A DNA stretch of 64,000 nt from an uncultured Solirubrobacterales bacterium (GTDB lineage: Bacteria; Actinomycetota; Thermoleophilia; Solirubrobacterales; Solirubrobacteraceae), in assembly GCA_963733555.1 (NCBI GenBank), contig CAVTDO010000001.1, forward strand, positions 64,913 through 128,912, written 5' to 3'. The first letter of the stretch is position 1; each line of letters opens with the position of its first letter. This document shows, in pieces, positions 1,886 through 15,254 of the stretch. The position numbers were made by a program, and so were the translations under genes. The notes below the pieces were generated by a model. The model had not been told where the DNA came from. It saw only the letters and a list, made by a program, of their open reading frames with translations, and did no database searches.

Positions 1886-2380
1886 TCAGACCCCCGAACC
1901 CCGAGCGCGGAGGATCGTCTCCCGCTCGGCCAGTCGATTCTCACGCCGCAGCTGCGCCTCGTGCTCGCGCCGCCTCTCATCGGGCGTCTCCGGCGTCAAT
2001 GGCCGCACTGGCGTCGGCTCACCCTCATCGCCGAGCGCCACCATCGTCAGGTAGGCGGTACACGTGTGGGCGATCTCTCCGCTCGCCACGTGCTCGGACT
2101 CGACCCGGACCCCGACCTCCATCGAGGTCCGCCAGGCCGCGTTGACGGTCGCCTTCACGGTTACCAACTGCCCCACAAAGACGGGATCTAAAAAGGTCAT
2201 TCGATCCATTCCCGCCGTCACCACACGCCGCCCGCTGTGGCGAATCGCCGCGATTCCAGCCACTTCGTCGCATAGCCGCATGATCGAGCCGCCGTGAACA
2301 TGGCCGGCGGTGTTGGCGTCCTCGATGCCCATCCAGTGGGTGAGGATCGATTCCGTCGCCGAGGGCGGGTGGGACTCCAC
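1886..2380 (-). CDS. Acyl-CoA thioesterase (hotdog fold, YciA-like)
   Basis: 'DANTAGHVHGGSIMRLCDEVAGIAA...VTAGMDRMTFLDPV.VG...SMEVGVRV...AYLTMVAL'. Confidence 0.9.
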   Translation of the reverse strand: MESHPPSATESILTHWMGIEDANTAGHVHGGSIMRLCDEVAGIAAIRHSGRRVVTAGMDRMTFLDPVFVGQLVTVKATVNAAWRTSMEVGVRVESEHVASGEIAHTCTAYLTMVALGDEGEPTPVRPLTPETPDERRREHEAQLRRENRLAERETILRARGSGV

Positions 2381-2392
2381 AGCGCTGGCACT

Positions 2393-2845
2393 CTACGCGC
2401 CTTCGCTCGCCGAGACCTCCTGTCCGTTGGCGGTCAGCGTCACGTCGATGTTTCCGCGCGTGGCGTTGGAATACGGGCACACCTGGTGGGCCTCCCGCAC
2501 CACCTGGGCGGCCTCGCCGGGATCCTCGATCGATGGGAGGTTGACGTCGAGCTCCGCGGCCAGCTTGAACCCCCCATCCCCCGTGGGCAGAAGCATGACC
2601 TTGGCGTCGATGGCCACGTCCCCGGCGTCGAGATGATGGCGGCGGGCGACCACGCCGAGGGCCCCCTCGAAGCAGGCAGCAAAGCCAACTGCGAATAGCT
2701 CCTCCGGATTGGTCCCGTCACCCTCGCCTCCGAGCTCCGGGGGAAGCCGCAGGTCGACATTGAGATTGCCGTCCGTCGTCTCGCCGTGTCCCGCGGCCCG
2801 GCCGCCGGTGACGTGCGCCTCAGCTGTGTAGATGACCTTCGCCAT
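2393..2845 (-). CDS. ohr: Organic hydroperoxide resistance protein (Ohr/OsmC family)
   Basis: MAKVIYTAEAHVTGGR...GTNPEELFAVGFAACF...AHQVCPYSNATRGNI; both catalytic Cys present; SD AAGGAG. Confidence 0.92.
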   Translation of the reverse strand: MAKVIYTAEAHVTGGRAAGHGETTDGNLNVDLRLPPELGGEGDGTNPEELFAVGFAACFEGALGVVARRHHLDAGDVAIDAKVMLLPTGDGGFKLAAELDVNLPSIEDPGEAAQVVREAHQVCPYSNATRGNIDVTLTANGQEVSASEGA

Positions 2846-2932
2846 GGTGTCTCCTTGGTTGAGCGTCTTGCCACATGATTGCGCCACACCCCTCTCCCCG
2901 CGGCGCTCTCGCCGGTCAGCCAGAATGTCGAG

Positions 2933-3841
2933 ATGAGCGCGGCGGCAGTACGTGCGAGCGGCGTCGTCAAGCGCTTTGGCACGACCTGCGCGCTCGACGA
3001 GGTCGACCTGACGGTTGACGAGGGCGAGGTTCGAGGGCTGCTCGGCCCCAACGGCGCGGGGAAGACGACCCTGCTTCGAATTCTCCTCGGCCTCCTGGCC
3101 GCGGATGCGGGATCGGTCGAGCTGTTCGGGCGAACGCCCGGGGACGGAAGCCGGAATGCGCTGGCCGGGGTCGCCGGTTTCGTCGAGGATCCGAGCTTCT
3201 ACCCCTACCTCTCGGGGCGCGCCAACCTTGAGCTGCTGGTCGAGCTCGACGATGGCGTCCCCCCCGCGCGGGTCGGCGAGGTGCTCGAGCGAGTGGGCCT
3301 CAGCCGGCGCGGGGCGGACCGGGTGAGCGGTTACTCGACGGGAATGAAGCAGCGCCTGGGCATCGCCGCCGCCCTGCTCCGGGCCCCTCGTCTCCTCCTC
3401 CTCGACGAGCCAACGGCGGGGCTTGACCCCGATGGGGTGCGCCAGGTGGGAGACCTGGTCCGGGAGCTCGCCGGACAGGGGGTCGCGCTCCTCATGAGCA
3501 GCCACCAGATCGGCGAGATCGAGGCAGTGTGCGATGGCTTCACCGTCCTGCGCTCGGGCGAAGTCGTATGGGCCGGGACGGCGCCGGAGCTGCGTGCGCA
3601 GGCGCCGGCCTCGGGCTACCGGCTTGAGACGAGCGACGATGCCCGCGCACTCGAATTGGCCCAGCGAAGCGACGGCGTCCGCGCAGCTCCGGACGAGCGC
3701 GGGGGGCTGGCTCTGGCCGTCGAGGCCGGGAAGCTCGATCCCTATGTGCTCGCCCTGGGGGCGGCGGCGATCGCGGTACGGCGCCTCGAGCTGACGGTGA
3801 GTCCGCTCGAGTCGATGTTCTTCACCCTCACCCGTCCATGA
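2933..3841 (+). CDS. ABC transporter ATP-binding protein
   Basis: Walker A GPNGAGKTT; signature YSTGMKQR; Walker B LLLLDEP; H-loop SSH. Confidence 0.95.
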   Translation: MSAAAVRASGVVKRFGTTCALDEVDLTVDEGEVRGLLGPNGAGKTTLLRILLGLLAADAGSVELFGRTPGDGSRNALAGVAGFVEDPSFYPYLSGRANLELLVELDDGVPPARVGEVLERVGLSRRGADRVSGYSTGMKQRLGIAAALLRAPRLLLLDEPTAGLDPDGVRQVGDLVRELAGQGVALLMSSHQIGEIEAVCDGFTVLRSGEVVWAGTAPELRAQAPASGYRLETSDDARALELAQRSDGVRAAPDERGGLALAVEAGKLDPYVLALGAAAIAVRRLELTVSPLESMFFTLTRP

Positions 3842-5127
3842 GCGCCGTCTGGGGCGTGTTCCGCGTCGAGCGGCGCAAGCTGAGCGCTCAGCCGGCGATT
3901 CGCCTGCTTGCGCTCGTCTGCCTGCTCGGCCCCTTCATCTTCTCGGCCATCCTCAAGGTCCAGAGCGGGAGCCCCACCGACACCCTCTACGGCGTATGGG
4001 TCCACTCGTCGGGCTACGCCGTCTCGCTGGTCCTGCTCGCCTTCTCTGGGACCTGGGGGATGCCCCTGATCGCCGGCATCGTCACCGGAGACATGTTTTC
4101 CTCCGAGGACCGGTATGGCACCTGGAAGCTGATCCTCACCCGCTCCCGCCGCCGGGGTGAGCTCCTGGCCGGCAAGCTGCTGGCGGCTGCCGTCTTCGTG
4201 ACCGGTCTGACGGCGCTCACCGCGCTGTCGAGCCTGGTCGCGGGGCTGCTCCTGTTCGGCGCTCACCCCGTCGTCAGCCTGAACGGAACCGTCTTCTCCT
4301 CCGGCCGCTCGCTCGGGCTCGTCCTCATCAGCTGGCTGATCTGCCTGCTCCCCACCCTCGCTTTCGCCAGCCTGGCGGCGCTTCTCTCGGTGGCCACCCG
4401 TAATGGGATCGTGGGCGTGATCGGGCCTGGCCTCGCCGCCCTGGCCATGCAGCTGCTCCTCCTCGTGGGGAGCGGGATCTGGGCCCACATGCTCCTCCTC
4501 GACTCGGCCTTCAACGCCTGGCACGGGCTCTTCACCGCGCACCCCTATTACGGGCCGCTGGGGGTCGCGGCGGCGGTGAGCCTCGTGTGGCTCTGCCTCT
4601 GCCTGCTCGCCACCTGGCGCCTGCTCGAGCGACGGGAGTTCGCCGGACCGCCCGTCGCTCGGCGGCAGGGATGGCTTGCCCCCGTGCGGGCGGCGGTGGC
4701 TCTGTGTGCGGTGATCGCACTGATTGCGGTGATGGGGAATCTCGGCCCGGCTGGCATCACCGCAGCCCGGCTGCGCGCCAGCCTCACTCCCGCGTTCAAC
4801 AACCTGACGCTGCTCCAGCAGCGTGAGCTCGGCCGAGCCGTCCCCCCCGGGGCCAAGCTGCGCATCCTGCCCAGCTGCAGCCGGCGCGGCGCCGGTCCCC
4901 GGGGGCCGGGAGATTGGGTCTGCACCATGGACGTCTTCATCCCCCAGCCCGGCGCTGTCCCCTTCCAGCAGACCCCGGTGACCTACGACGTGAGCGTGCA
5001 GTGGGACGGTTGCTACAAGGCCCAGTCTCCGCCCGCCTTCATCGGTCAGCAGACAATGCGAGACGCGGCCGGCCACCAGGTCATCAACCCGCTCTACACA
5101 ATCTACGGATGCTTCAACACGCTGTGA
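3838..5127 (+). CDS. ABC-2 type permease with C-terminal extracytoplasmic Cys-containing domain
   Basis: ATGA overlap with the ATPase; about 7 hydrophobic segments; 'EDRYGTWKLILTR..RRGELLAGK' motif; soluble tail with 4 Cys. Confidence 0.85.
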   Translation: MSAVWGVFRVERRKLSAQPAIRLLALVCLLGPFIFSAILKVQSGSPTDTLYGVWVHSSGYAVSLVLLAFSGTWGMPLIAGIVTGDMFSSEDRYGTWKLILTRSRRRGELLAGKLLAAAVFVTGLTALTALSSLVAGLLLFGAHPVVSLNGTVFSSGRSLGLVLISWLICLLPTLAFASLAALLSVATRNGIVGVIGPGLAALAMQLLLLVGSGIWAHMLLLDSAFNAWHGLFTAHPYYGPLGVAAAVSLVWLCLCLLATWRLLERREFAGPPVARRQGWLAPVRAAVALCAVIALIAVMGNLGPAGITAARLRASLTPAFNNLTLLQQRELGRAVPPGAKLRILPSCSRRGAGPRGPGDWVCTMDVFIPQPGAVPFQQTPVTYDVSVQWDGCYKAQSPPAFIGQQTMRDAAGHQVINPLYTIYGCFNTL

Positions 5128-7496: not shown

Positions 7497-7564
7497 GTGT
7501 CCTGAGTCCTCGGGGCATTAGAACCGACGCACCGCCGCGTGCGCGTGTGTATGTTGCGCGTGCG

Positions 7565-10015
7565 ATGAGGCTCCCGATCCGCGGCAGGGGTTGGCGCATG
7601 ATCCTGTCCGCCGCTGCCTGCCTGGCCTTTGGAGTCCCCGCGGCCCAGGCCGGCGTGCCGAGCGGGATGCCGACCGATGTGCCCGCCGCCGCCAGCGCAC
7701 CGGACCCGTCCCTGCCGGAGCCGGCAAGCACGGCGTGGCCGTTCGCCAACACGTTCCCGCAGACGTCCGGCACCGGGCGCCTGGCCGGCGGCGCGTCGCT
7801 GTGGTCGGACTTCATCTACGACGACTATGGGGCGGCCGGGCCGGCGGGCCTGCCGACCTCGAGCTATAGCCAGAGCTCCGGCCTGGCCAACCGCAAGGGC
7901 AACTACGTCTATCCCCCTGGGCCGGCCGCCAACAACGGGGCCGACATCTTTCGCGCCGGGGTCGGACTGAAGGGCAACTACAGCTACTGGCGGGTCGACT
8001 GGGTGACGCTCGCCGACCCGAACGTGCCCATCGCCGAGTGGACCTTTGACACCGACAACAACCCGGCCACCGGCGCCTCCGCATGGCCAGCCGGGGCTGG
8101 GGTGAGCTCGGCGGGAATCGACCAGGCCCTGGTCGTCTCCAGCCGCGGCGCCTGGCTGATCAATCCGCTCACCGGCCTCCGCACCGATGTGGTCGCGGGC
8201 GGCGGCAGCCTCACGGTCGACGCCGCGTCCAAGTCCTTCATCGTGGCTGTCCCGCGGTCGTTGTTGCCGGTGAGCGGCGTCTGGAACGTCCGGCTGGGCG
8301 CCGGCCTGGCCGACGGGACCGGCCAGAACTTCGCTCCGGCCTACGTCAACAACGCCGGCGCCGGCCCCTCGAGCACCGCCGAGCGTCTCTACAACGTCAC
8401 CTTCCGCACCGTGGCCCAGGAGCCGCCCGGCTACACCGATCCCTCAACCGCCGCGCAGACCACCGCCCTCGAGCAGGCCCTGGGCGGCACTCCACTCGGC
8501 ACCGCGCTCGGAGTCGACGGCATCGTCAATTCCGTAAGCGGGAACTTCTGGGGGGAGAACGACCAGGCCGACACGCTGGCAGGCGGGGACGTGTCGAAGT
8601 TCTCCCTGCCGGTCAACTGGTCTCAGCTCGCAGCGGCCACCAACACCCCTGAGCCGCAACCGACGGGCTACAGCATGCGCTGGTATGTCTCGCGCCTGAA
8701 CCTCGGCTCCGGCCAGGTGATCAACGACGGGAACGAGGGCAACTTCAAGCCGACCCTGCTCGACCGCGTCCAGCCCTATTCGGTCTACGTGCCGACCACG
8801 TACCGGCCCGGACATCCGGTGCCCCTGACCTGGATCCTCCACTCGCTCGAGGTCAACTACAACCAGTACGGCGGCGACGATCCGCAGCTGCTCCAGCAGC
8901 TCTGCCAGGATCGGAACTCGATCTGCGCCACTACCGAGGGATACGGCCCGGCGGGCTGGTACTACAACGAAGCCGAAACCGATTTCTGGCAGGTCTGGAG
9001 GGCGCTCGCCGAGACCTATTCGCTCGACCCGTCGCGGACCGTCAGCAGCGGCTACTCGATGGGCGGCTGGGCCTCCTACAAGCTCGTGTTCGAGCATCCG
9101 GATGACTTCGCCGGCTCGCTGGTGCTCGACGGTCCGCTCGTGTGCGGGATCGAGGCCTACCCGGGCCAGAACGGAAACGCTTTCTCCGATCCCGCCTGCT
9201 CCCAGGATGGCCAGAGCCGCCCGTTCGTCGGCAACGCTCGCTGGATCCCCTACGTGATCGACCACACGTACGCCGATGAGCTCGTCCCCGTGACAGGGGC
9301 AATCGCCCAGGGCACGGCGTTCGACAACCTCGGTCAGCGTTACGACCTGTTCATCCACACCGGAGGAGATCACCTGGCCTTCGCGATCGAGGATCGCTTC
9401 AGCGATGCCGTCGCCGCGCTCGGCAACCCGATCCGCACCGTCAACCCGGGTGCCTTCAGCTACAGCTGGTATCCCAGCCTCAACAACGCGACCCTGGGCA
9501 TCGGGGCGACAGGTGACTACTGGCTGAGCGGCCTGGCGGCCCGGGACGGGTCCTACGGGAAGATCGCCACGATCAAGGCCGCCGACGAGGCTCGGCCTGA
9601 CGCGGCGGTCACTGACGAACGGTTCGGTCCCGCCCTCGTGACCCAGCCGCTTCCGGGCACTGAGACCGGGCTCTCCTGGAAGCTCGGAGCGCGGCCGAAA
9701 GCGCAGAAGCGGATGACGCTGACGCTGACCGACGTGTCGGCGCTCACGCTCGATGCCCTGGCGGCCAACCTCCGCCTCGGCACGATCACCCTCCACAGCG
9801 ACGGGAGCACGAGCTTCGCGATCGAGCACCTCCAGAAGGGAACCGAGGTCCTGAAGGACGGACGCCTGGTGACGCGGGCCGGCTCCCGCGGCCGCGCGGC
9901 GGTCACCGTCCACACAGGAACGACTGTCGTCAGGCTCGTGCGCCCGGCCCGGGCGGCCAAGAAGCGCTCACGCTCGAAGCCGCGGCGGTCCGTGACGGTT
10001 CGCTTTACCGGGTAG
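7565..10015 (+). CDS. Secreted multidomain alpha/beta-hydrolase (esterase/PHB-depolymerase-like), C-terminus ...KKRSRSKPRRSVTVRFTG
   Basis: Sec-type signal ending AAQA; nucleophile elbow GYSMGG; 'PLTWILHSL'; N-terminal beta-rich domain. Confidence 0.75.
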   Translation: MRLPIRGRGWRMILSAAACLAFGVPAAQAGVPSGMPTDVPAAASAPDPSLPEPASTAWPFANTFPQTSGTGRLAGGASLWSDFIYDDYGAAGPAGLPTSSYSQSSGLANRKGNYVYPPGPAANNGADIFRAGVGLKGNYSYWRVDWVTLADPNVPIAEWTFDTDNNPATGASAWPAGAGVSSAGIDQALVVSSRGAWLINPLTGLRTDVVAGGGSLTVDAASKSFIVAVPRSLLPVSGVWNVRLGAGLADGTGQNFAPAYVNNAGAGPSSTAERLYNVTFRTVAQEPPGYTDPSTAAQTTALEQALGGTPLGTALGVDGIVNSVSGNFWGENDQADTLAGGDVSKFSLPVNWSQLAAATNTPEPQPTGYSMRWYVSRLNLGSGQVINDGNEGNFKPTLLDRVQPYSVYVPTTYRPGHPVPLTWILHSLEVNYNQYGGDDPQLLQQLCQDRNSICATTEGYGPAGWYYNEAETDFWQVWRALAETYSLDPSRTVSSGYSMGGWASYKLVFEHPDDFAGSLVLDGPLVCGIEAYPGQNGNAFSDPACSQDGQSRPFVGNARWIPYVIDHTYADELVPVTGAIAQGTAFDNLGQRYDLFIHTGGDHLAFAIEDRFSDAVAALGNPIRTVNPGAFSYSWYPSLNNATLGIGATGDYWLSGLAARDGSYGKIATIKAADEARPDAAVTDERFGPALVTQPLPGTETGLSWKLGARPKAQKRMTLTLTDVSALTLDALAANLRLGTITLHSDGSTSFAIEHLQKGTEVLKDGRLVTRAGSRGRAAVTVHTGTTVVRLVRPARAAKKRSRSKPRRSVTVRFTG

Positions 10016-10031
10016 GGCAGCACTTCAAGCG

Positions 10032-10080
10032 TGAGCGTGATGGAAAAGTGTTCTCTATGACCACTTTTCCATCACGCTCA
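10032..10080. repeat. Perfect 19-bp inverted repeat (REP-like element / bidirectional terminator)
   Basis: TGAGCGTGATGGAAAAGTG-N11-CACTTTTCCATCACGCTCA between convergent genes; a related copy lies at 17101-17146. Confidence 0.8.
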
Positions 10081-10142
10081 GCCGGCACGGCACGCGTGTA
10101 AGGCGCCCGCAGCCTCTCGCTGCCTCAGCGGCGTCCGGCCGG

Positions 10143-11098
10143 CTAGACGACGCGGACCGGCGTGCCGATCTGGACGTGGCGCCCGAACCAAAAATCGTCG
10201 GAGATCCGCAGGCGGATGCAGCCGTGGGAAATCCGGCCCGGGATGGCCGAGGCGGGCGCCCCATAGGGACCGTGGATCCCGACCACTCCGCCGCCCGGCC
10301 AATCGGTCAGCGTGGAGTAGTCGGTGGTGCCGAACGCGTAGGGGTAATAGCCACTCGACCGGTCACCCACCAGGTTGAAGCTCTCATTGATCCAGAAGTG
10401 GCCCGTCGGAGTGGGCATGCCCCGCGCGCCGACGCCCACTGGAGCGCTCCAGATCTTGCTGCCGTTCTCGTAGAAGTACATGCGCATCTGCCCGCGGTTG
10501 ACGACGACCGCCTGGTGGGTCACGTGGAAGCGGTCGAGGGCGTTGCGCTGGACCCATCCGGTCCGGCCGTTCGGACGCCCGGGAATCCGGATGTCGACCC
10601 ACTCGCTGCGTTTGCTGGTCCAGTGGGTGCGAAGGAGCAGGTAGACCGAGTTGAAGCCGTCCTCCGTGTACCAGCTCAGGCGGCTGACCCGGTGGGACTT
10701 CGTGGACGGCTGCGAGTACACGTCGGCGATCCGGTGAACGTAGGCGAACTGCGTGAGGCTCATCTCGTTGGAGAGGATCTGATCGGCCGGAACCGACGGG
10801 GTGTGGGTTGTGGGGCTCTTGGTGCCCGTGCTGCCCGAGCCGGAGGAGCCGCCAGAGCCGGAGCCTGAGCCGCCGGAGCCGGAGCCGGAACCTGAGCCGC
10901 CGGAGCCGGAACCACCAGATCCGGGGTTCGTGCACCCGGGCACGGGGGAAGCGGGGGTGCCGGGCAGTCGACCGAGCGCGACGCGGTCTGCGTCACGCCG
11001 GAGGTCGATGCCACGGCGGTGGCACTGGGCAGGGCGAGCACAGCCGAGAGCGCGGCCAGCGACCCACCCATGCGTCCAAACAGCTTTCTCCCACGCAT
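10143..11098 (-). CDS. L,D-transpeptidase (YkuD family), secreted, with one frameshift near 10944-10948
   Basis: Catalytic 'GIHG...SHGCIRL'. The signal peptide is in another frame (ORF 10760..11098) and joins in-frame if one G is added to the G5 run. Confidence 0.85.
10831..10925 (-). repeat. Low-complexity Gly/Ser linker-coding repeat
   Basis: Encodes GSGGSGSGGSGSGSGSGGSGSGSGGSSGSGS; repeated ccggagccg units. Confidence 0.85.
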
Positions 11099-11188
11099 GT
11101 GCTCATTAGGGTAGCGAGAGCGAGAGATACCTACGCCGATAACCAGCTAGCGACACGGCCGAGGCCGCAGAGAGGTAGGTTTCCGGCC

Positions 11189-13102
11189 ATGCCAGGGCTG
11201 ACGACGCGCCGTGACCTCTTAAGGGGCGCGGCTGGGGGAATGGCCATCGGGGCCTCGGCGCTGGCCTACAACTCGTTGATCGCAAGGGCGCTCGCCAGCG
11301 CTCCGGCCTGCCCCTCGAGCCTCAACGACATCGAACACATCGTCATCTTGATCCAGGAGAACCGGTCCTTCGACCACTACTTCGGGACCTACCGGGGAGT
11401 GACCGGATTCGCCGATCCGCATGTCCTCCCGCTCAATGACGGCAGCGGGCTGACCATCTTCGCCCAGCCCGGCTACCCCGGCGGCTACGACGGCGGTCAC
11501 CTCTACCCCTTCCACATCGACTCGTACTCGAACGGCGAGTGCACGAACGACATCGACCACGAGTGGGGGCCCCAGCACACCTACTGGAATGGCGGCAAGC
11601 TCGACGGCTTCGTCAGCGGCCACCTCAAGGTTGACGGGAGCGCCAACGGGCCGCTCACCATGGGCTACTACACGCGCAAGGACCTGGCCTTCTACTACGC
11701 CCTGGCCGACGCGTTCACGCTCTGTGACCAGTACCACTGCTCGGTCATCGGGCCGACTGACCCCAACCGCCTGTACAGCTTCTCGGCCTGGCTCGATCCC
11801 GCCGGCACGAACGGCGGCCCGATCCTCTCGACCAGCACCTCGAGGGTTGGCCGCTACGGCACGCTGACCTGGACGACGATGCCCGAGCAGCTCCAGGCCC
11901 GGGGAATCAGCTGGAAGGTCTATGGCAGCGCCGATGGGAACTTCGGCGACAACGTGCTGCCCTACTTCAAGCAGTACAGCAACCCGACCCTCGCCGCCAA
12001 TGCGCTCGGCCCCACGTATCCGGGGACCTTCCAGGCCGACGTGGCCGCTGGGACGCTCCCCCAGGTTTCCTGGATCCTGGCGCCCCTGGTCGAGAGCGAG
12101 CACCCGCCGGGTCCCACCGAGTTCGGCGAGGTGGTCGCGGCGGACGTGCTGAACGCCTTGGTCTCGAATCCAGCTGTCTGGTCCAAGACGGCGCTGCTCG
12201 TCACCTACGACGAGAACGGCGGCTTCTTCGACCATGTTCCGCCGCCTGTCCCCCCCGCCGGCACCGCCGGGGAGTATCTGACCGTCAACCCGCTGCCTTC
12301 GGACGCCTCCGGGGTCGCCGGGCCGATCGGGCTGGGCTTCCGGGTTCCCACCCTGATCGTCTCGCCCTTCAGCCGGGGCGGCTTCGTCTGCTCGGACGTG
12401 TTCGACCACACCTCGCTGCTGCGCCTGCTCGAGACGCGGTTCGGCGCCGAGGTCCCGAATCTGTCCGCCTGGCGGCGCTCCGTAACGGGCGATATGACGA
12501 GCGCGTTCAACTTCGCCAAGGTCGACACATCGGTTCCCTCGCTTCCTCAACCCTCGGATGCGGACACGCGGATCACGACGGGCGCCTGTGCCGTGGGCGC
12601 GCCCCTCGACCTCGCCTCGCCCAGCAACACGACGCTCGACGTCCTCGAGGCCACCGTGGTGCCGCCCTATCCGGTCACCGTCAACTCGGCCCCGCCCCAG
12701 CAGGAGCCGGGCCATGCGGCAGCGCCGAGCGGGCCACTGTGCGGCCCCGGAGCGGCGAAGGCCCGCCTCACCGTCCGGGGTGTCCACGCCCGAACGTCCG
12801 GACGGTTCGACGCCGCCATCGCCAGCTTCTCCTACAGCGACCGTCATGCCAAGGCCGCGAATTTCACCGCCGAGATCCACTGGGGTGACGGCCACCGCTC
12901 CCGGGGGAAGATCGTCGCCGCGGGGTCCGGCTTCAAGGTGGTGGGCAAGCACCATTTCGCCAAGGCACGGATCTACCGCGTTGGTGTGACGATCACGGCG
13001 CCCGACGGGGCCAGGGCCACCGCGCACTCAGAGGTCACGGTGGTCCACTCGCGGGGGGCCGTCCGCCCGCGCGTCGCGGTGCGCCCGACCTTCACGGGCT
13101 AG
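11189..13102 (+). CDS. Tat-exported phospholipase C / phosphoesterase with C-terminal Ig-like domain, C-terminus ...RPRVAVRPTFTG
   Basis: Twin-arginine signal TRRDLL; 'EHIVILIQENRSFDHYFG', 'GPTDPNR', 'SEHP', 'TYDENGGFFDHV', 'GLGFRVP' motifs. Confidence 0.92.
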   Translation: MPGLTTRRDLLRGAAGGMAIGASALAYNSLIARALASAPACPSSLNDIEHIVILIQENRSFDHYFGTYRGVTGFADPHVLPLNDGSGLTIFAQPGYPGGYDGGHLYPFHIDSYSNGECTNDIDHEWGPQHTYWNGGKLDGFVSGHLKVDGSANGPLTMGYYTRKDLAFYYALADAFTLCDQYHCSVIGPTDPNRLYSFSAWLDPAGTNGGPILSTSTSRVGRYGTLTWTTMPEQLQARGISWKVYGSADGNFGDNVLPYFKQYSNPTLAANALGPTYPGTFQADVAAGTLPQVSWILAPLVESEHPPGPTEFGEVVAADVLNALVSNPAVWSKTALLVTYDENGGFFDHVPPPVPPAGTAGEYLTVNPLPSDASGVAGPIGLGFRVPTLIVSPFSRGGFVCSDVFDHTSLLRLLETRFGAEVPNLSAWRRSVTGDMTSAFNFAKVDTSVPSLPQPSDADTRITTGACAVGAPLDLASPSNTTLDVLEATVVPPYPVTVNSAPPQQEPGHAAAPSGPLCGPGAAKARLTVRGVHARTSGRFDAAIASFSYSDRHAKAANFTAEIHWGDGHRSRGKIVAAGSGFKVVGKHHFAKARIYRVGVTITAPDGARATAHSEVTVVHSRGAVRPRVAVRPTFTG

Positions 13103-13114
13103 GGCCCTGGCGCG

Positions 13115-13618
13115 TCAGAGCGTCAGCGTGAACGACACCCGCCCGGAATCGCACGAATCCGTCTGGCCGTTCGCCGCCCGGTAGTTCAGATGGAGCTCGA
13201 TCGTTCCGGTGAAGGTCGCCCGGGTGCGGTTGAGCTTTCCACTGATTGAGCGTGAGCCGCCGGTGATCGCCTCAGAACCCCCTGCGGAGGGGATCGGCGT
13301 CACCTTCGCCGCCCCGTGCACCGCGCCATTTCCGGCGATCGAAAGCTTGCCCCAGCCGTCCTCCGCGGTGAAGTCATCCTTGGCGCTGCAGGTCAAGGCC
13401 AGGGCAGAGACGACGCTGATCCGCTTACCGTTGCCGGTCACGGTGGCCAGCGCCGGCCACTCCTGCGAGGTCAGGCCGCTGAGATTGCGCCCTGCGGCCT
13501 GATCGCTGACACGGGCGGCGGAGGCCCGCGTGGCCGCTGCGGCCTGGCCGGCCTGCAGGAGGCCGAGGACAGCGAGCGCCACGACGAGCAGCCGGCGCCA
13601 GCGAATCGTCCCGGACAT
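13115..13618 (-). CDS. Secreted hypothetical protein
   Basis: Signal peptide MSGTIRWRRLLVVALAVLGLLQAGQAAA; beta-rich mature part with 2 Cys. Confidence 0.65.
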   Translation of the reverse strand: MSGTIRWRRLLVVALAVLGLLQAGQAAAATRASAARVSDQAAGRNLSGLTSQEWPALATVTGNGKRISVVSALALTCSAKDDFTAEDGWGKLSIAGNGAVHGAAKVTPIPSAGGSEAITGGSRSISGKLNRTRATFTGTIELHLNYRAANGQTDSCDSGRVSFTLTL

Positions 13619-13629
13619 GCGGCGGGGCA

Positions 13630-15254
13630 CTAGACCTTCGTCTCCACGAAGCGCTCGCGGAGGTCCGTCTTCTTGAACTTTCCCGTGGCCGTGCGGGGGA
13701 TCTCGTCGACGAACTCGAAGCGGTCGGGCAGCTGCCACTTGGCGAAGTGGCCGGACAGGTGCTCGCGCAGCTCCTCAGGGCTCGCCTCGGAACCGTCCCG
13801 GAGGACGACGACGGCGAGCGGGCGCTCGCCCCAGCGATCGTCGGGCATGGCGATGACCGCCGCTTCGGCCACCGACGGGTGCGCCATCAGGTTGTTCTCA
13901 AGGTCGACCGAGGAGATCCACTCACCGCCGGACTTGACCAGGTCCTTGGAGCGGTCGGAGATGCGGATGCACCCCTGGGGGTTGATCTTGACCACATCCC
14001 CGGTCTGGAACCAGCCGTCCTCGGTGAACTTCTCCTCGCCCTGGCCGCGCCAGTAGGCCGCGGCCACCCACGGCCCCCGGACCTCCAGCTCGCCCATCGC
14101 CTCATCGTCCCAGGGGATCAGCTCGCCCTCGTCATTGCGGGCCCGGATCTCGACAAACGGCGACGGGCGGCCCTGGCGGGCCCGGAACTCGTACTTCTCG
14201 TCCTCGGACGCGTCGTCGAGCTCGGGCGGGAGTCGGCAGATCGTCCCCATCGGCGAGGTCTCGGTCATCCCCCAGGCCTGGATGATCGTCGAGGCCGTGC
14301 TTGTCGAAGCCCTCGAGCATGCTCCGCGGCACCGCAGAGCCGCCGACGATCATGAGGCGCAGGGCGCTGAGGTCCCAGCGGTCGGGCTCGTTGTCGAGGG
14401 CCTGGAGGATGGCCATCCACACGGTGGGAACCCCCGCCGTGATCGTGACCTTCTCGTCGGCCAGGCAGCTCCAGCACGCTCTCGGCATCGAGCTTGGGGC
14501 CCGGGAGGACGAGTCCCGTCCCCGCGAAGGCGGCGACGTAGGGCAGTCCCCAGGCGTTGGCATGGAACATCGGCACGACCGGGAGGATCGTGTCCCGCCC
14601 GGAAATCGCGTGCGCGTCCGGGAGCGCCGCCATGAGCGAGTGCAGCACGAGCGCGCGGTGCGAATAGAGGACGCCCTTGGGCCGGCCGGTGGTGCCGGAC
14701 GTGTAACACATGGCCGCGGCGCGGCGCTCCTCGAGCGACGGCCATTCCATCGGCTCCGAGCCCTCGATCAGGGAGGCGTAGTCGATCGTCCCGTCGGGCA
14801 CGGAGCCGGAGCGCGAAACGACGATCACGTGGTCGAACTCCCGGGCGGAGCGGAATTTCTCGAACACCTCCAGCAACGTCTCGTCGACGATGATCGCCTT
14901 GTCCTCGGCGTCGGAGACGATGAACTTCAGCTCCTCCTCACTGAGGCGGGGGTTCATCGTGTGGAGCACCGCGCCCATCAGCGGGACGGCGAAGTACAGC
15001 TCCAGGTGCTCCGTCTGGTTCCAGAGCATGGTGGCCACCGGATCGCCGTCGCCGATCCCCAGCTCTTTGAGACCGCTGGCCAGCCGGTGCGCGCGCTCCA
15101 CGGTCTCGCCGAGCGTCGTGCGCTCGATCGATCCGTCGGGGCGGCGTGAGACGACCTTGCGACCCGGTGTCAGGTGCTCCGCACGTTCGACCAGAGCCGT
15201 CAGCGCGAGCGGAAAGTCATCCATCATCAGCCCGTGGGTCATCTTCTCGGTCAT
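13630..15254 (-). CDS. Long/medium-chain fatty acid-CoA ligase (AlkK/DmdB-like), two apparent 1-nt insertions (about 14466 and 14291)
   Basis: [45 protein letters not shown] and TGKFKK motifs are spread over three frames. Confidence 0.88.

What the first reader, a model, noticed from the sequence alone, without database searches (positions are those of the whole stretch)
7565..13102. Shared C-terminal 'basic stretch + FTG-stop' tail on two unrelated secreted enzymes: candidate undescribed protein-sorting signal
Seen: the Sec-type hydrolase ends ...RPARAAKKRSRSKPRRSVTVRFTG* (10015) and the Tat-type phospholipase C ends ...HSRGAVRPRVAVRPTFTG* (13102). The codons differ (TTT ACC GGG vs TTC ACG GGC), so this is not a recent DNA duplication. 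There is no TM helix or charged tail after the motif, unlike classical LPXTG/LAXTG sortase signals. Each tail follows a beta-rich C-terminal domain. Inference: a lineage-specific terminal signal for surface attachment, processing (T-G is the bond sortases cleave) or wall binding. I know of no named family for it, and two examples are a small sample.
Basis: partly seen in the sequence, partly recalled or inferred. Interest (0 to 1): 0.78.

Follow-up and report, generated by a model that had tools for sequence, protein, structure and literature searches.

The report
Bare FTG-end cell-wall anchoring signal
About 33 exported enzymes of this soil actinobacterium end in a positively charged stretch followed by exactly Phe-Thr-Gly, and genes with this ending lie beside one subfamily of wall cross-linking enzymes (L,D-transpeptidases) far more often than chance, which suggests an undescribed, sortase-independent way of fastening proteins to the cell wall.

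Summary
Both window proteins end in FTG-stop, as do about 33 proteins of this 3.66 Mb Solirubrobacterales genome (0.5 expected). They belong to more than 15 unrelated enzyme families. Nearly all have Sec or Tat leaders and an Arg/Lys/His-rich, acid-free stretch before P-x-F-T-G-COOH. No NCBIfam model and no paper I could find describes the tail.

Three of the genome's seven YkuD genes touch FTG genes (p=2e-4). In two cargo families the tail predicts a neighbouring YkuD gene:
- Window hydrolase family: 7 of 8 FTG homologues against 0 of 35 others.
- Ice-binding-like family: 16 of 21 xTG-COOH homologues against 4 of 54 others.

In the second family, many tail-less homologues carry LAXTG/LPXTG sortase signals in the same position. 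Six of 23 FTG-bearing genomes show no sortase.

Best reading (inferred, untested): a C-terminal wall-anchoring signal served by this transpeptidase subfamily. The enzyme probably cleaves Thr-Gly, with Gly standing in for the D-Ala leaving group, and joins Thr to peptidoglycan. Related genomes have one adjacent substrate; this genome has about 33, dispersed and polybasic.

The parts
7547..10015 (+). Exported alpha/beta-hydrolase-type enzyme, 822 aa from GTG 7547 (the likely start is ATG 7565). First FTG-tailed cargo.
   Evidence: ORF and translation. Weak Peptidase_S9 hit (PF00326, 4.6e-5) and weak similarity to extracellular PHA-depolymerase catalytic domain (35.7 bits, below cut-off). GYSMGG serine motif. 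8 of 43 complete homologues end in FTG.
7565..7654 (+). Sec-type signal peptide of the hydrolase (MRLPIRGRGWRMILSAAACLAFGVPAAQAG).
   Evidence: Read from the sequence; no predictor was run.
9698..9940 (+). All-beta C-terminal domain that precedes the tail.
   Evidence: AlphaFold2 on a 37-sequence alignment: residues about 700-780 of the construct have pLDDT 90-95 and are strands only.
9941..10012 (+). Tail 1: polybasic stretch plus FTG (RPARAAKKRSRSKPRRSVTVRFTG). FTG codons at 10004-10012, stop at 10013-10015.
   Evidence: Last 20 residues have pLDDT below 50. In the G151 orthologue the tail is 20/30 identical against 79% for the core, and FTG is kept.
10032..10080 (.). 22-nt inverted repeat (95% complementary, 5-nt loop) in the 127-bp spacer between the convergent hydrolase and transpeptidase genes. 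Probably a two-way terminator hairpin without a T-run.
   Evidence: The consensus terminator scan found nothing.
10143..10943 (-). YkuD-type L,D-transpeptidase ('Y3'): Gly/Ser linker, N-terminal beta domain (RIPGRPNGRTGWV) and catalytic domain with H...SHGCIR. Candidate enzyme for the tails.
   Evidence: PF03734 1e-17. Catalytic H163/S178/H179/G180/C181/R183 are invariant in 30 subfamily members. AlphaFold pLDDT 85.8; Foldseek top hits are B. subtilis YkuD 1y7m and LdtMt2. Orthologues in 25 species have FTG ORFs in 16 loci.
10760..11098 (-). ORF carrying the transpeptidase's signal peptide (MRGRKLFGRMGGSLAALSAVLALPSATAVAS), in a different frame from the catalytic ORF. This is an apparent frameshift or an assembly indel.
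   Evidence: Three-frame translation. The nearest orthologue, L081, has leader, linker and catalytic part in one frame.
11189..13102 (+). Tat-exported phospholipase C / phosphoesterase family protein (637 aa) with an extra C-terminal domain. Second FTG-tailed cargo.
   Evidence: PF04185 5.5e-108 over residues 48-419. Of 80 homologous loci only the 74%-identical Solirubrobacterales one (L001) keeps the extra domain and FTG; the others end just after the catalytic domain.
11189..11296 (+). Tat-type signal peptide (MPGLTTRRDLLRGAAGGMAIGASALAYNSLIARALA).
   Evidence: Twin-arginine motif read from the sequence.
13046..13099 (+). Tail 2: HSRGAVRPRVAVRPTFTG. FTG codons at 13091-13099, stop at 13100-13102. 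There is no Lys in the last 45 residues.

Best explanation
The tail is a C-terminal cell-wall sorting signal of exported proteins in Solirubrobacterales and related Actinomycetota. Its partner is a distinct subfamily of YkuD L,D-transpeptidases (Y1/Y2/Y3 in this genome; Y3 lies between the two window genes), not a sortase.

Proposed course of events:
1. The protein crosses the membrane by Sec or Tat. Leaders are shown.
2. The unstructured, acid-free polybasic stretch keeps the C-terminus at the anionic membrane or wall surface and acts as a spacer. This is inferred.
3. The catalytic Cys of the transpeptidase attacks the Thr-Gly peptide bond of ...P-x-F-T-G-COOH. The achiral terminal Gly plays the part of the D-Ala leaving group of a tetrapeptide stem, and a thioester forms. 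This is inferred.
4. The side-chain amine of the diamino acid of a peptidoglycan stem resolves the thioester, leaving the protein joined through Thr, the same linkage a sortase makes. This is inferred.

Related genomes have a 'dedicated' form: one ice-binding-like FTG protein directly in front of a Y1-type enzyme. This genome and its nearest relatives also have Y2/Y3-type enzymes and a dispersed set of 12 to 33 substrates, a 'housekeeping' form.
For: Properties of a sorting signal:
- About 33 proteins of more than 15 unrelated Pfam families share the tail: GH94-like, GH31, GH3, S8, S15, penicillin amidase, tannase-like, lipase, PLC, cadherin/PASTA adhesin, ice-binding-like and others.
- Nearly all have Sec or Tat leaders.
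- The tail evolves faster than the core, yet keeps its composition and an invariant FTG.

Link to YkuD:
- Three of the genome's 7 YkuD genes directly flank 5 FTG genes. In the permutation test, 6 YkuD genes mapped to my gene calls and 3 were adjacent (p=2e-4). A fourth, Y1, has a secreted PPVTG-COOH protein 1.7 kb away.
- YkuD is the only envelope-related family that recurs among the neighbours of FTG genes.
- Window hydrolase family: 7 of 8 FTG-ended homologues have a Y3-type YkuD within 2.5 kb, against 0 of 35 others (p=2.5e-7). The gene arrangement takes two different forms.
- Ice-binding family: 16 of 21 [F/V/L]TG-COOH homologues have YkuD within 1.5 kb, against 4 of 54 others (p=8e-9). 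At least 24 of the others end in a hydrophobic helix plus basic tail, many after an LAXTG or LPXTG motif. The bare tail therefore stands where relatives carry a wall-anchoring signal.
- Direct FTG-to-YkuD adjacency was found independently in other families of the order (G230, G221 twice, G199, G169) and in same-genus genomes (G005, G017, G219, G252, G101). About 0.2 such pairs were expected in the order sample.

Enzyme competence:
- The full H...SHGC-R motif is invariant in 30 subfamily members, and the fold is YkuD.

Against sortase:
- There is no hydrophobic segment after the motif.
- The genome's single sortase has a canonical LPYTG + helix + RR substrate.
- Six of 23 FTG-bearing genomes show no sortase, including genomes 95% and 91% complete.

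Chemistry:
- YkuD enzymes are known to anchor proteins to peptidoglycan and to swap the terminal residue of stems (review PMC12729407). That they accept Gly at position 4 is from my own knowledge.
Against: - There is no experiment. All support is genomic context and sequence statistics.
- About 27 of the 33 FTG genes here are not next to any YkuD gene.
- The window's own YkuD gene reads as frameshifted between leader and catalytic part, so Y3 may be inactive in this strain, or the assembly may be wrong.
- All known protein anchoring by YkuD enzymes uses the protein as amine acceptor, not as acyl donor, and is known only in Gram-negative bacteria. A protein C-terminus as donor has no precedent.
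- P-A-F-T-G loosely resembles the class E motif LAXTG, and most FTG genomes, including this one, do have a sortase.
- The association tests are not corrected for shared ancestry. The 8 FTG hydrolases are probably one clade.
- The phylogenetic profile across 120 genomes of the order is weak: 4.4 against 3.3 raw pattern hits (p=0.01). Raw pattern counts are mostly noise.
- Gene calls and signal-peptide calls are my own heuristics.
Confidence: 0.55

Rival explanations
1. The tail is anchored by the same L,D-transpeptidases but in the classical direction. The enzyme takes a peptidoglycan tetrapeptide as donor and an amine of the protein, a Lys side chain in the polybasic stretch, as acceptor, as for Braun's lipoprotein. 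FTG-COOH would only dock the tail to the enzyme.
For: All known YkuD-mediated protein anchoring works this way, and Lpp and OutB have basic C-termini (VRTYKK, VRTTKK). The tails here are rich in Lys, Arg and His. The same gene-neighbourhood evidence applies.
Against: Lys is not conserved. Five of 33 tails, including the window PLC, have no Lys in the last 40 residues. Many relatives' tails are barely basic (e.g. ...DVVTPSAPTFTG...RCESRAIHFTG). The invariant part is the extreme C-terminus T-G-COOH, which carries no amine.
Confidence: 0.12
2. The tail gives non-covalent retention or is a processing tag. The polybasic stretch binds anionic wall polymers or membrane lipids. FTG-COOH is bound by a receptor domain, for instance the N-terminal beta domain of the neighbouring enzyme, or marks the protein for a C-terminal protease. 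The YkuD neighbours would merely remodel the wall locally.
For: Extreme positive charge with almost no acidic residues. Several proteins in the genome have polybasic ends without FTG. Most FTG genes are not beside a YkuD gene.
Against: This reading does not explain the strictly invariant T-G at the very end. It does not explain FTG tails with little charge in relatives. It does not explain why the tail replaces covalent sortase signals within one cargo family, or why the neighbour is always a catalytically intact Cys transpeptidase.
Confidence: 0.15
3. The genome's sortase handles the tails. P-[AGS]-F-T-G would be a shortened LAXTG-type motif, cleaved between T and G. The polybasic stretch would hold the substrate at the membrane in place of the usual helix.
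For: T-G is the sortase scissile bond. One sortase, closest to class E, is present here and in 17 of 23 FTG-bearing genomes.
Against: No hydrophobic segment or downstream charged tail is present. FTG genes neighbour YkuD genes and never the sortase. Six of 23 FTG-bearing genomes lack a detectable sortase (binomial p of about 0.008 if only assembly gaps were to blame). Within the ice-binding family, LAXTG + helix and FTG-COOH + YkuD are alternatives.
Confidence: 0.08
4. Chance, or a DNA-level artefact such as a repeated element or terminator that happens to encode FTG-stop.
For: The raw DNA pattern TTYACNGGNTGA gives up to 16 spurious hits in some genomes.
Against: 29 observed against 0.48 expected. 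There are 18 different 12-mers and three stop codons. The hits are confined to long, exported ORFs. The tail is conserved in orthologues at 79-87% core identity.
Confidence: 0.01

Closest known systems
Sortase with the LPXTG / LAXTG cell-wall sorting signal (Gram-positive bacteria; class E in Actinomycetota)
   Same: Both are C-terminal signals on Sec-exported surface proteins and enzymes. Both have T-G as the last conserved dipeptide. Both are served by a Cys transpeptidase. Both exist in 'dedicated' (adjacent gene) and 'housekeeping' (dispersed substrates) forms. Homologues of the same cargo family carry one signal or the other.
   Different: Here the protein ends at the Gly, with no hydrophobic helix and no charged tail after the motif; the charge lies before it. 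The linked enzyme has the YkuD fold, not the sortase fold. Six of 23 carrier genomes show no sortase.
Attachment of Braun's lipoprotein Lpp (and OutB) to peptidoglycan by YkuD L,D-transpeptidases LdtA/B/C (E. coli, Dickeya); detachment by DpaA
   Same: The enzyme family is the same. The extreme C-terminus of the protein is the recognised part, and the C-terminal region is basic (review PMC12729407).
   Different: Those systems are in Gram-negative bacteria and serve one or two lipoprotein or membrane-protein substrates. The terminal residue is Lys or Arg and acts as amine acceptor. Here there are dozens of soluble exported enzymes in a Gram-positive-type lineage, the terminal residue is Gly, and no amine is conserved.
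L,D-transpeptidase-mediated attachment of outer-membrane beta-barrel proteins through their N-termini (Brucella, Agrobacterium, Coxiella, Legionella)
   Same: YkuD enzymes tie many different proteins to meso-DAP.
   Different: The linkage is through the N-terminal amine after leader cleavage. There is no C-terminal motif, and the bacteria have two membranes.
Tripartite C-terminal sorting signals with dedicated processing enzymes (PEP-CTERM/exosortase, GlyGly-CTERM/rhombosortase, PGF-CTERM/archaeosortase, MYXO-CTERM)
   Same: Short, lineage-restricted C-terminal tags shared by many unrelated exported proteins and found by genome-wide counting.
   Different: All of those consist of motif + membrane helix + basic cluster and are cut by membrane-embedded enzymes. 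The FTG tail has no helix and matches none of the NCBIfam models.

Membership tests
Sortase-dependent cell-wall sorting signal | LPXTG-type pentapeptide (LAXTG for class E) | tested here: inconclusive
   T-G is invariant. Position -5 is P in 20 of 33 tails and A in 7; position -3 is always F. The register is therefore P-x-F-T-G, not L-P/A-x-T-G.
Sortase-dependent cell-wall sorting signal | Hydrophobic membrane-spanning segment after the motif | tested here: not met
   All 33 proteins stop directly after the Gly.
Sortase-dependent cell-wall sorting signal | Positively charged tail after the hydrophobic segment | tested here: not met
   The basic residues lie before the motif, not after it.
Sortase-dependent cell-wall sorting signal | A sortase gene in every genome that carries the signal | tested here: not met
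   PF04203 is absent from 6 of 23 FTG-bearing genomes, including G230 (95% complete) and G169 (91%). These are metagenome-assembled genomes, so absence is not proven.
YkuD L,D-transpeptidase (the window gene 10143-10943) | Pfam PF03734 match above the gathering score | tested here: met
   65.5 bits against a cut-off of 23.4.
YkuD L,D-transpeptidase (the window gene 10143-10943) | Catalytic motif H-x(14-17)-[S/T]-H-G-C-h-R | tested here: met
   IHGPYGAPASAIPGRISHGCIRL. H163, S178, H179, G180, C181 and R183 are invariant in 30 subfamily sequences.
YkuD L,D-transpeptidase (the window gene 10143-10943) | YkuD fold | tested here: met
   AlphaFold pLDDT 85.8, pTM 0.83. Foldseek: 1y7m E=5.8e-8, plus LdtMt2, Ldtfm and others.
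YkuD L,D-transpeptidase (the window gene 10143-10943) | Export signal in frame with the catalytic domain | tested here: not met
   The leader ORF (10760-11098) is in another frame. Orthologue L081 is intact.
Lpp-type substrate of L,D-transpeptidases | C-terminal Lys (or Lys-Arg / Lys-Lys) supplying the epsilon-amine | tested here: not met
   The terminal residue is Gly in all tails, and 5 of 33 have no Lys in the last 40 residues.
Lpp-type substrate of L,D-transpeptidases | Covalent bond to meso-DAP of peptidoglycan | not testable with these tools
   Needs muropeptide mass spectrometry.
Tripartite sorting signals (PEP-CTERM, GlyGly-CTERM, PGF-CTERM, MYXO-CTERM and the like) | Match to a curated model; motif followed by a helix and a basic cluster | tested here: not met
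   Ten tails scanned against NCBIfam at E up to 10 gave no sorting-signal model. No helix is present.
Phosphoesterase / non-haemolytic phospholipase C family (window 11189-13102) | PF04185 match over the whole catalytic domain, and a Tat leader | tested here: met
   361.7 bits over profile positions 1-354 of 356. The TRRDLL twin-arginine motif was read from the sequence.

The most novel reading that the evidence does not exclude
A subfamily of YkuD L,D-transpeptidases works as a second, sortase-like surface-display machine of Gram-positive-type bacteria. It would take a protein C-terminus ending in [F/V]-T-G-COOH as acyl donor, release the single terminal Gly in the way a D-Ala is released from a tetrapeptide stem, and ligate the Thr carboxyl to peptidoglycan. 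No membrane-spanning signal would be needed. The system would come in dedicated (adjacent substrate) and housekeeping (dozens of polybasic-tailed substrates) forms across Thermoleophilia and some Actinomycetes.
Probability: 0.35. Interest if true: 0.9.

Novelty: new variant of a known kind. Interest (0 to 1): 0.8.

Why it matters
Sortases are the textbook route for covalent surface display in Gram-positive bacteria. L,D-transpeptidases are known to tie proteins to the wall only in Gram-negative bacteria, and only with the protein as acceptor.

A three-residue bare C-terminal tag served by an L,D-transpeptidase would have several consequences:
- It would add a second covalent display route and a new reaction for a well-studied, drug-targeted enzyme family.
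- It would explain how abundant, poorly cultured soil Actinomycetota (Solirubrobacterales) keep dozens of hydrolases on their surface.
- It would allow thousands of 'hypothetical' endings to be annotated.
- It could give a very small ligation tag for protein engineering.

The idea is directly testable with a peptide, a purified enzyme and mass spectrometry.

Tried and rejected
- Raw counts of the DNA word TTYACNGGNTGA as a census across 151 genomes of the class and 121 of the order. One family (f9, about 60% G+C) looked enriched, but all 16 sites inspected in G030 were short out-of-frame ORFs, and none of its YkuD genes was convincingly adjacent. The census is noise-limited. The profile against the Y3-type enzyme is only weakly positive, so I do not lean on it.
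- A stricter word (SCNNNNTTYACNGGNTGA) improves the signal, but I did not run it on collections.
- NCBIfam scan of ten tails found nothing. NCBIfam names none of Y1, Y2, Y3 or Y7 above cut-off.
- Clustering the neighbours (two genes either side) of all FTG genes showed no recurrent envelope family other than YkuD.
- Y7 (G000 C2:386749-387486) is a divergent YkuD-like protein with TAGCVAL instead of SHGCIR, convergent with an FTG gene. I suspected a DpaA-like detaching amidase, but it has no hit in the PDB sequence search and none in NCBIfam. This stays a guess.
- L206 looked like a natural fusion of an ice-binding protein with the transpeptidase. The junction reads ...RRPSGFAG followed by the enzyme's own leader, so it is a read-through or an error, not a designed fusion.
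- PLC homologues give no tail-swap contrast. Outside Solirubrobacterales they simply lack the extra domain.
- The full-length model of the hydrolase is too poor (pLDDT 52.9) for a fold search.
- I did not use the big profile search for the tail, because a 40-residue low-complexity profile would mostly return noise.

Full report
**1. The observation**

- 7547-10015 ends ...RPARAAKKRSRSKPRRSVTVRFTG*.
- 11189-13102 ends ...HSRGAVRPRVAVRPTFTG*.

The FTG codons differ: TTT ACC GGG against TTC ACG GGC. The first protein has a Sec-type leader and only weak alpha/beta-hydrolase signatures (Peptidase_S9 4.6e-5; PHA-depolymerase-like 35.7 bits). The second has a twin-arginine leader and a full Phosphoesterase/PLC domain (5.5e-108). 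Nothing follows the Gly in either.

**2. Is it more than chance?**

The whole genome (3.66 Mb, 7 contigs) was laid in the Python box and genes were called with a self-trained codon-usage score.
- Of 2997 called genes, 29 end in FTG, against 0.48 expected from composition (p=4e-41). FTG is the second commonest C-terminal tripeptide after AAA.
- One of the 29 is a leaderless alpha/beta hydrolase without a basic stretch, the single chance case one would expect.
- Five further genuine cases were hidden by my gene caller. The total is about 33.
- FTG-stop is spelled in 18 different 12-mers with all three stop codons. This is peptide-level conservation, not a DNA repeat.
- Position -5 is Pro in 20 of 33 tails and Ala in 7. 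Position -4 is small or Arg. Positions -6 to -14 are Arg-rich.
- The 30 residues before FTG hold 9.9 K+R, 2.1 H and 0.18 D+E, against 3.6, 0.6 and 3.6 elsewhere.
- A crude leader test is positive in 23 of 28 FTG proteins against 27% of other proteins (p=1.6e-9). By eye about 31 of 33 have a Sec or Tat leader.

The cargo spans more than 15 unrelated Pfam families:
- glycoside hydrolases: GH94-like (two), GH31, GH3;
- peptidases and amidases: subtilase, S15 peptidases (two), penicillin amidases (two);
- other hydrolases: Abhydrolase_10, tannase-like DUF6351, class 2 lipase, PLC;
- others: BNR, DUF7507 (two), an ice-binding-like protein, and a cadherin/Big_9/PASTA adhesin.

Many unrelated exported proteins sharing a short terminal tag is the hallmark of a sorting signal.

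**3. Organism and conservation**

The nearest loci for three different window genes all come from Solirubrobacteraceae or Solirubrobacterales metagenome-assembled genomes.

In the nearest relative reached (G151), 11 of 13 pattern sites are long ORFs with a basic stretch and FTG. Seven of them were matched by BLAST to FTG proteins of this genome. Core identity is 79-87% over most of the length in six of the pairs. The 30 residues before FTG are only 37-67% identical and carry indels, yet composition and FTG are kept.

The AlphaFold model of the hydrolase is poor overall. It does give a confident all-beta domain directly before the tail and a disordered last 20 residues.

**4.

Between the two window genes, on the minus strand (10143-10943), lies a YkuD L,D-transpeptidase (PF03734, 1e-17).

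The genome has seven YkuD genes, and three are in direct contact with FTG genes:
- Y3 in the window lies between two FTG genes.
- Y2 (C2:1551057-1551782) lies between two FTG genes on the same strand.
- Y7 (C2:386749-387486) is convergent with one FTG gene.

Permutation over gene order gives p=2e-4.

Y2 and Y3 are 42% identical, and Y1 is 31-33% identical to both. Together they form a subfamily with an N-terminal beta domain (RIPGRPNGRTGWV) and a fully conserved catalytic H...SHGC-R motif. The predicted fold is YkuD (pLDDT 85.8; Foldseek 1y7m, LdtMt2).

Y1 has a secreted PPVTG-COOH protein three genes away. No other envelope-related family recurs among the neighbours of FTG genes.

**5. Tests in other genomes**

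(a) Y3 orthologues. 25 loci from other species hold 18 FTG-ended ORFs in 16 loci, against one ORF for the five permuted tripeptides.

(b) The window hydrolase family. Of 43 complete homologues, 8 end in FTG and 7 of those have a Y3-type gene within 2.5 kb, either convergent downstream or divergent upstream. The 35 with other endings have none (p=2.5e-7).

(c) The ice-binding-like family (PF11999), using the genome's own FTG member as query.
- Of 75 complete homologues, 21 end in [F/V/L]TG-COOH.
- Fifteen end in FTG. They come mostly from genomes labelled Solirubrobacterales, Thermoleophilaceae or unclassified Actinomycetota. Where a YkuD gene is nearby, it follows on the same strand 41-445 bp downstream.
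- Six end in VTG or LTG. Most come from Streptosporangiales or unclassified Actinomycetota, and four of them have a divergent YkuD gene upstream.
- 16 of the 21 have a YkuD gene within 1.5 kb, against 4 of 54 others (p=8e-9).
- At least 24 of the others end in a hydrophobic helix and basic tail, many of them after an LAXTG or LPXTG motif, that is, in sortase-type signals.

Within one cargo family, the bare xTG end plus a YkuD neighbour and the sortase signal are alternatives.

(d) Coordinates alone reveal FTG-to-YkuD pairs less than 300 bp apart in G230, G221, G199 and G169, which belong to other families of the order. About 0.2 such pairs were expected (p=6e-5). All were verified in sequence.

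(e) Four same-genus genomes that lack a Y2/Y3-type enzyme each have one clear signal-type FTG protein among the sites inspected. It is the ice-binding-like one, directly in front of a Y1-type enzyme. The other pattern sites inspected in G005 and G017 are short noise ORFs, apart from one long ORF in each whose tail is not polybasic.

This suggests a dedicated pair in most relatives, and an expansion to 12-33 dispersed, polybasic substrates where Y2/Y3-type enzymes are present (this genome, G151, G158).

**6. Sortase as the alternative**

The genome has a single sortase, closest to class E, and at least one canonical substrate (LPYTG + helix + RR). FTG genes never neighbour it. Six of 23 FTG-bearing genomes show no sortase domain at all, including genomes estimated 95% and 91% complete. 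If the absences were due only to assembly gaps, the binomial p would be about 0.008. Sortase is therefore unlikely to be the general partner, though it is not excluded in this genome.

**7. Mechanism**

Shown:
- export leaders;
- an unstructured, acid-free tail;
- an invariant T-G at the free C-terminus;
- a statistically strong and repeatedly rearranged linkage to a catalytically intact Cys transpeptidase subfamily;
- substitution for sortase signals within a cargo family.

Inferred: the enzyme treats ...Thr-Gly-COOH as it treats ...DAP-D-Ala-COOH of a tetrapeptide stem. Gly is achiral and can stand in for D-Ala. Gly would be released, a thioester formed, and the Thr carboxyl passed to the side-chain amine of a stem peptide.

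Known YkuD activities include protein anchoring, detachment and exchange of the terminal residue (review PMC12729407). Acceptance of Gly at position 4 is from my own knowledge.

The classical direction, with the protein as amine acceptor, is less likely. Lys is not conserved: 5 of 33 tails, including the PLC tail, have none. The invariant end carries no amine.

The polybasic stretch is best seen as a clade-specific retention and spacer element. Relatives' tails can be nearly uncharged.

**8. What is known**

A December 2025 review lists YkuD-mediated protein anchoring only for Gram-negative bacteria (Lpp, OutB, outer-membrane proteins, some lipoproteins). In all of these the protein provides the amine. 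Four full-text searches found no description of an FTG or xTG-COOH signal, or of YkuD-dependent display in Actinomycetota. NCBIfam has no model for it.

Two earlier notes of this scan, from other genomes, proposed an FTG tail linked to an L,D-transpeptidase. I treated them as leads. The ice-binding pairing they describe was re-derived here from independent loci and extended with the tail-swap contrast, the hydrolase family and the genome-wide expansion.

**9. Caveats**

- The window's own transpeptidase reads as frameshifted between its leader (10760-11098) and the catalytic ORF. The L081 orthologue is intact.
- The association tests are not corrected for phylogeny.
- Gene and leader calls are heuristic.
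- The raw pattern census is noisy.
- Nothing has been tested at the bench.

**10. Verdict**

The likely partner enzyme is identified as a YkuD subfamily.

My confidences:
- the tail is a genuine sorting-type signal functionally tied to this enzyme subfamily: about 0.8;
- covalent wall anchoring by that enzyme: about 0.55;
- the donor (Thr-Gly cleavage) chemistry: about 0.35.

Noticed in passing
window 10760-11098 and 10143-10943 (minus strand): The L,D-transpeptidase's signal peptide and its catalytic part are in different reading frames, overlapping in a Pro/Gly-rich stretch. The nearest orthologue (L081) has them in one frame. This is either a pseudogene or a homopolymer indel of the assembly.
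   Followed up: partly
window 10032-10080: A 22-nt inverted repeat (95% complementary, 5-nt loop) in an AT-richer 127-bp spacer between the convergent hydrolase and transpeptidase genes. It is likely a shared terminator hairpin, though it lacks the T-run of the consensus.
   Followed up: partly
window 13115-13738 (minus strand): A 207-aa exported protein with no Pfam or NCBIfam match, convergent with the PLC gene with only 12 bp between the stops. It ends in ...RVSFTLTL and has an internal RATFTG.
   Followed up: no
G000 C2:386749-387486 (outside the window; locus L178): A divergent YkuD-like protein (Y7) with TAGCVAL in place of SHGCIR, lacking the Arg after the Cys, convergent with an FTG-tailed hydrolase. 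It could be a DpaA-like detaching amidase, but it has no PDB or NCBIfam hit.
   Followed up: partly
L198, L200, L211, L215, L216, L228 (Nonomuraea, Sphaerisporangium and other Streptosporangiales / Actinomycetota): Ice-binding-like proteins ending in ...PVTG or ...RLTG-COOH, often after His-rich or Pro-rich spacers. Most have a YkuD gene nearby, upstream on the opposite strand; the one read in full (L211) has a lipoprotein-type leader. This looks like a VTG/LTG variant of the same signal in another class.
   Followed up: partly
G000 C3:263387-299167 and C3:302377-337164 (outside the window): Two neighbouring giant ORFs of about 11,900 and 11,600 aa with polybasic C-termini that do not end in FTG. 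Two smaller proteins (C3:519796-521304, C4:12370-13092) also end in Lys/His/Arg runs without FTG.
   Followed up: no
L206 (Actinomycetota MAG), 1902-3941: The ice-binding gene and the downstream transpeptidase are read as one 679-aa ORF. The tail is ...RRPSGFAG and there is no stop codon, so this is a read-through variant or sequencing error at the FTG-stop position.
   Followed up: partly
G000 C2:1550089-1554222 (outside the window; loci L177, L179): A compact same-strand cassette: a small Gly-rich FTG protein, then the Y2 transpeptidase, then a 765-aa collagen-like (G-x-T repeat) protein with a Lys-rich FTG tail. It is conserved in G151 with two collagen-like FTG ORFs.
   Followed up: partly
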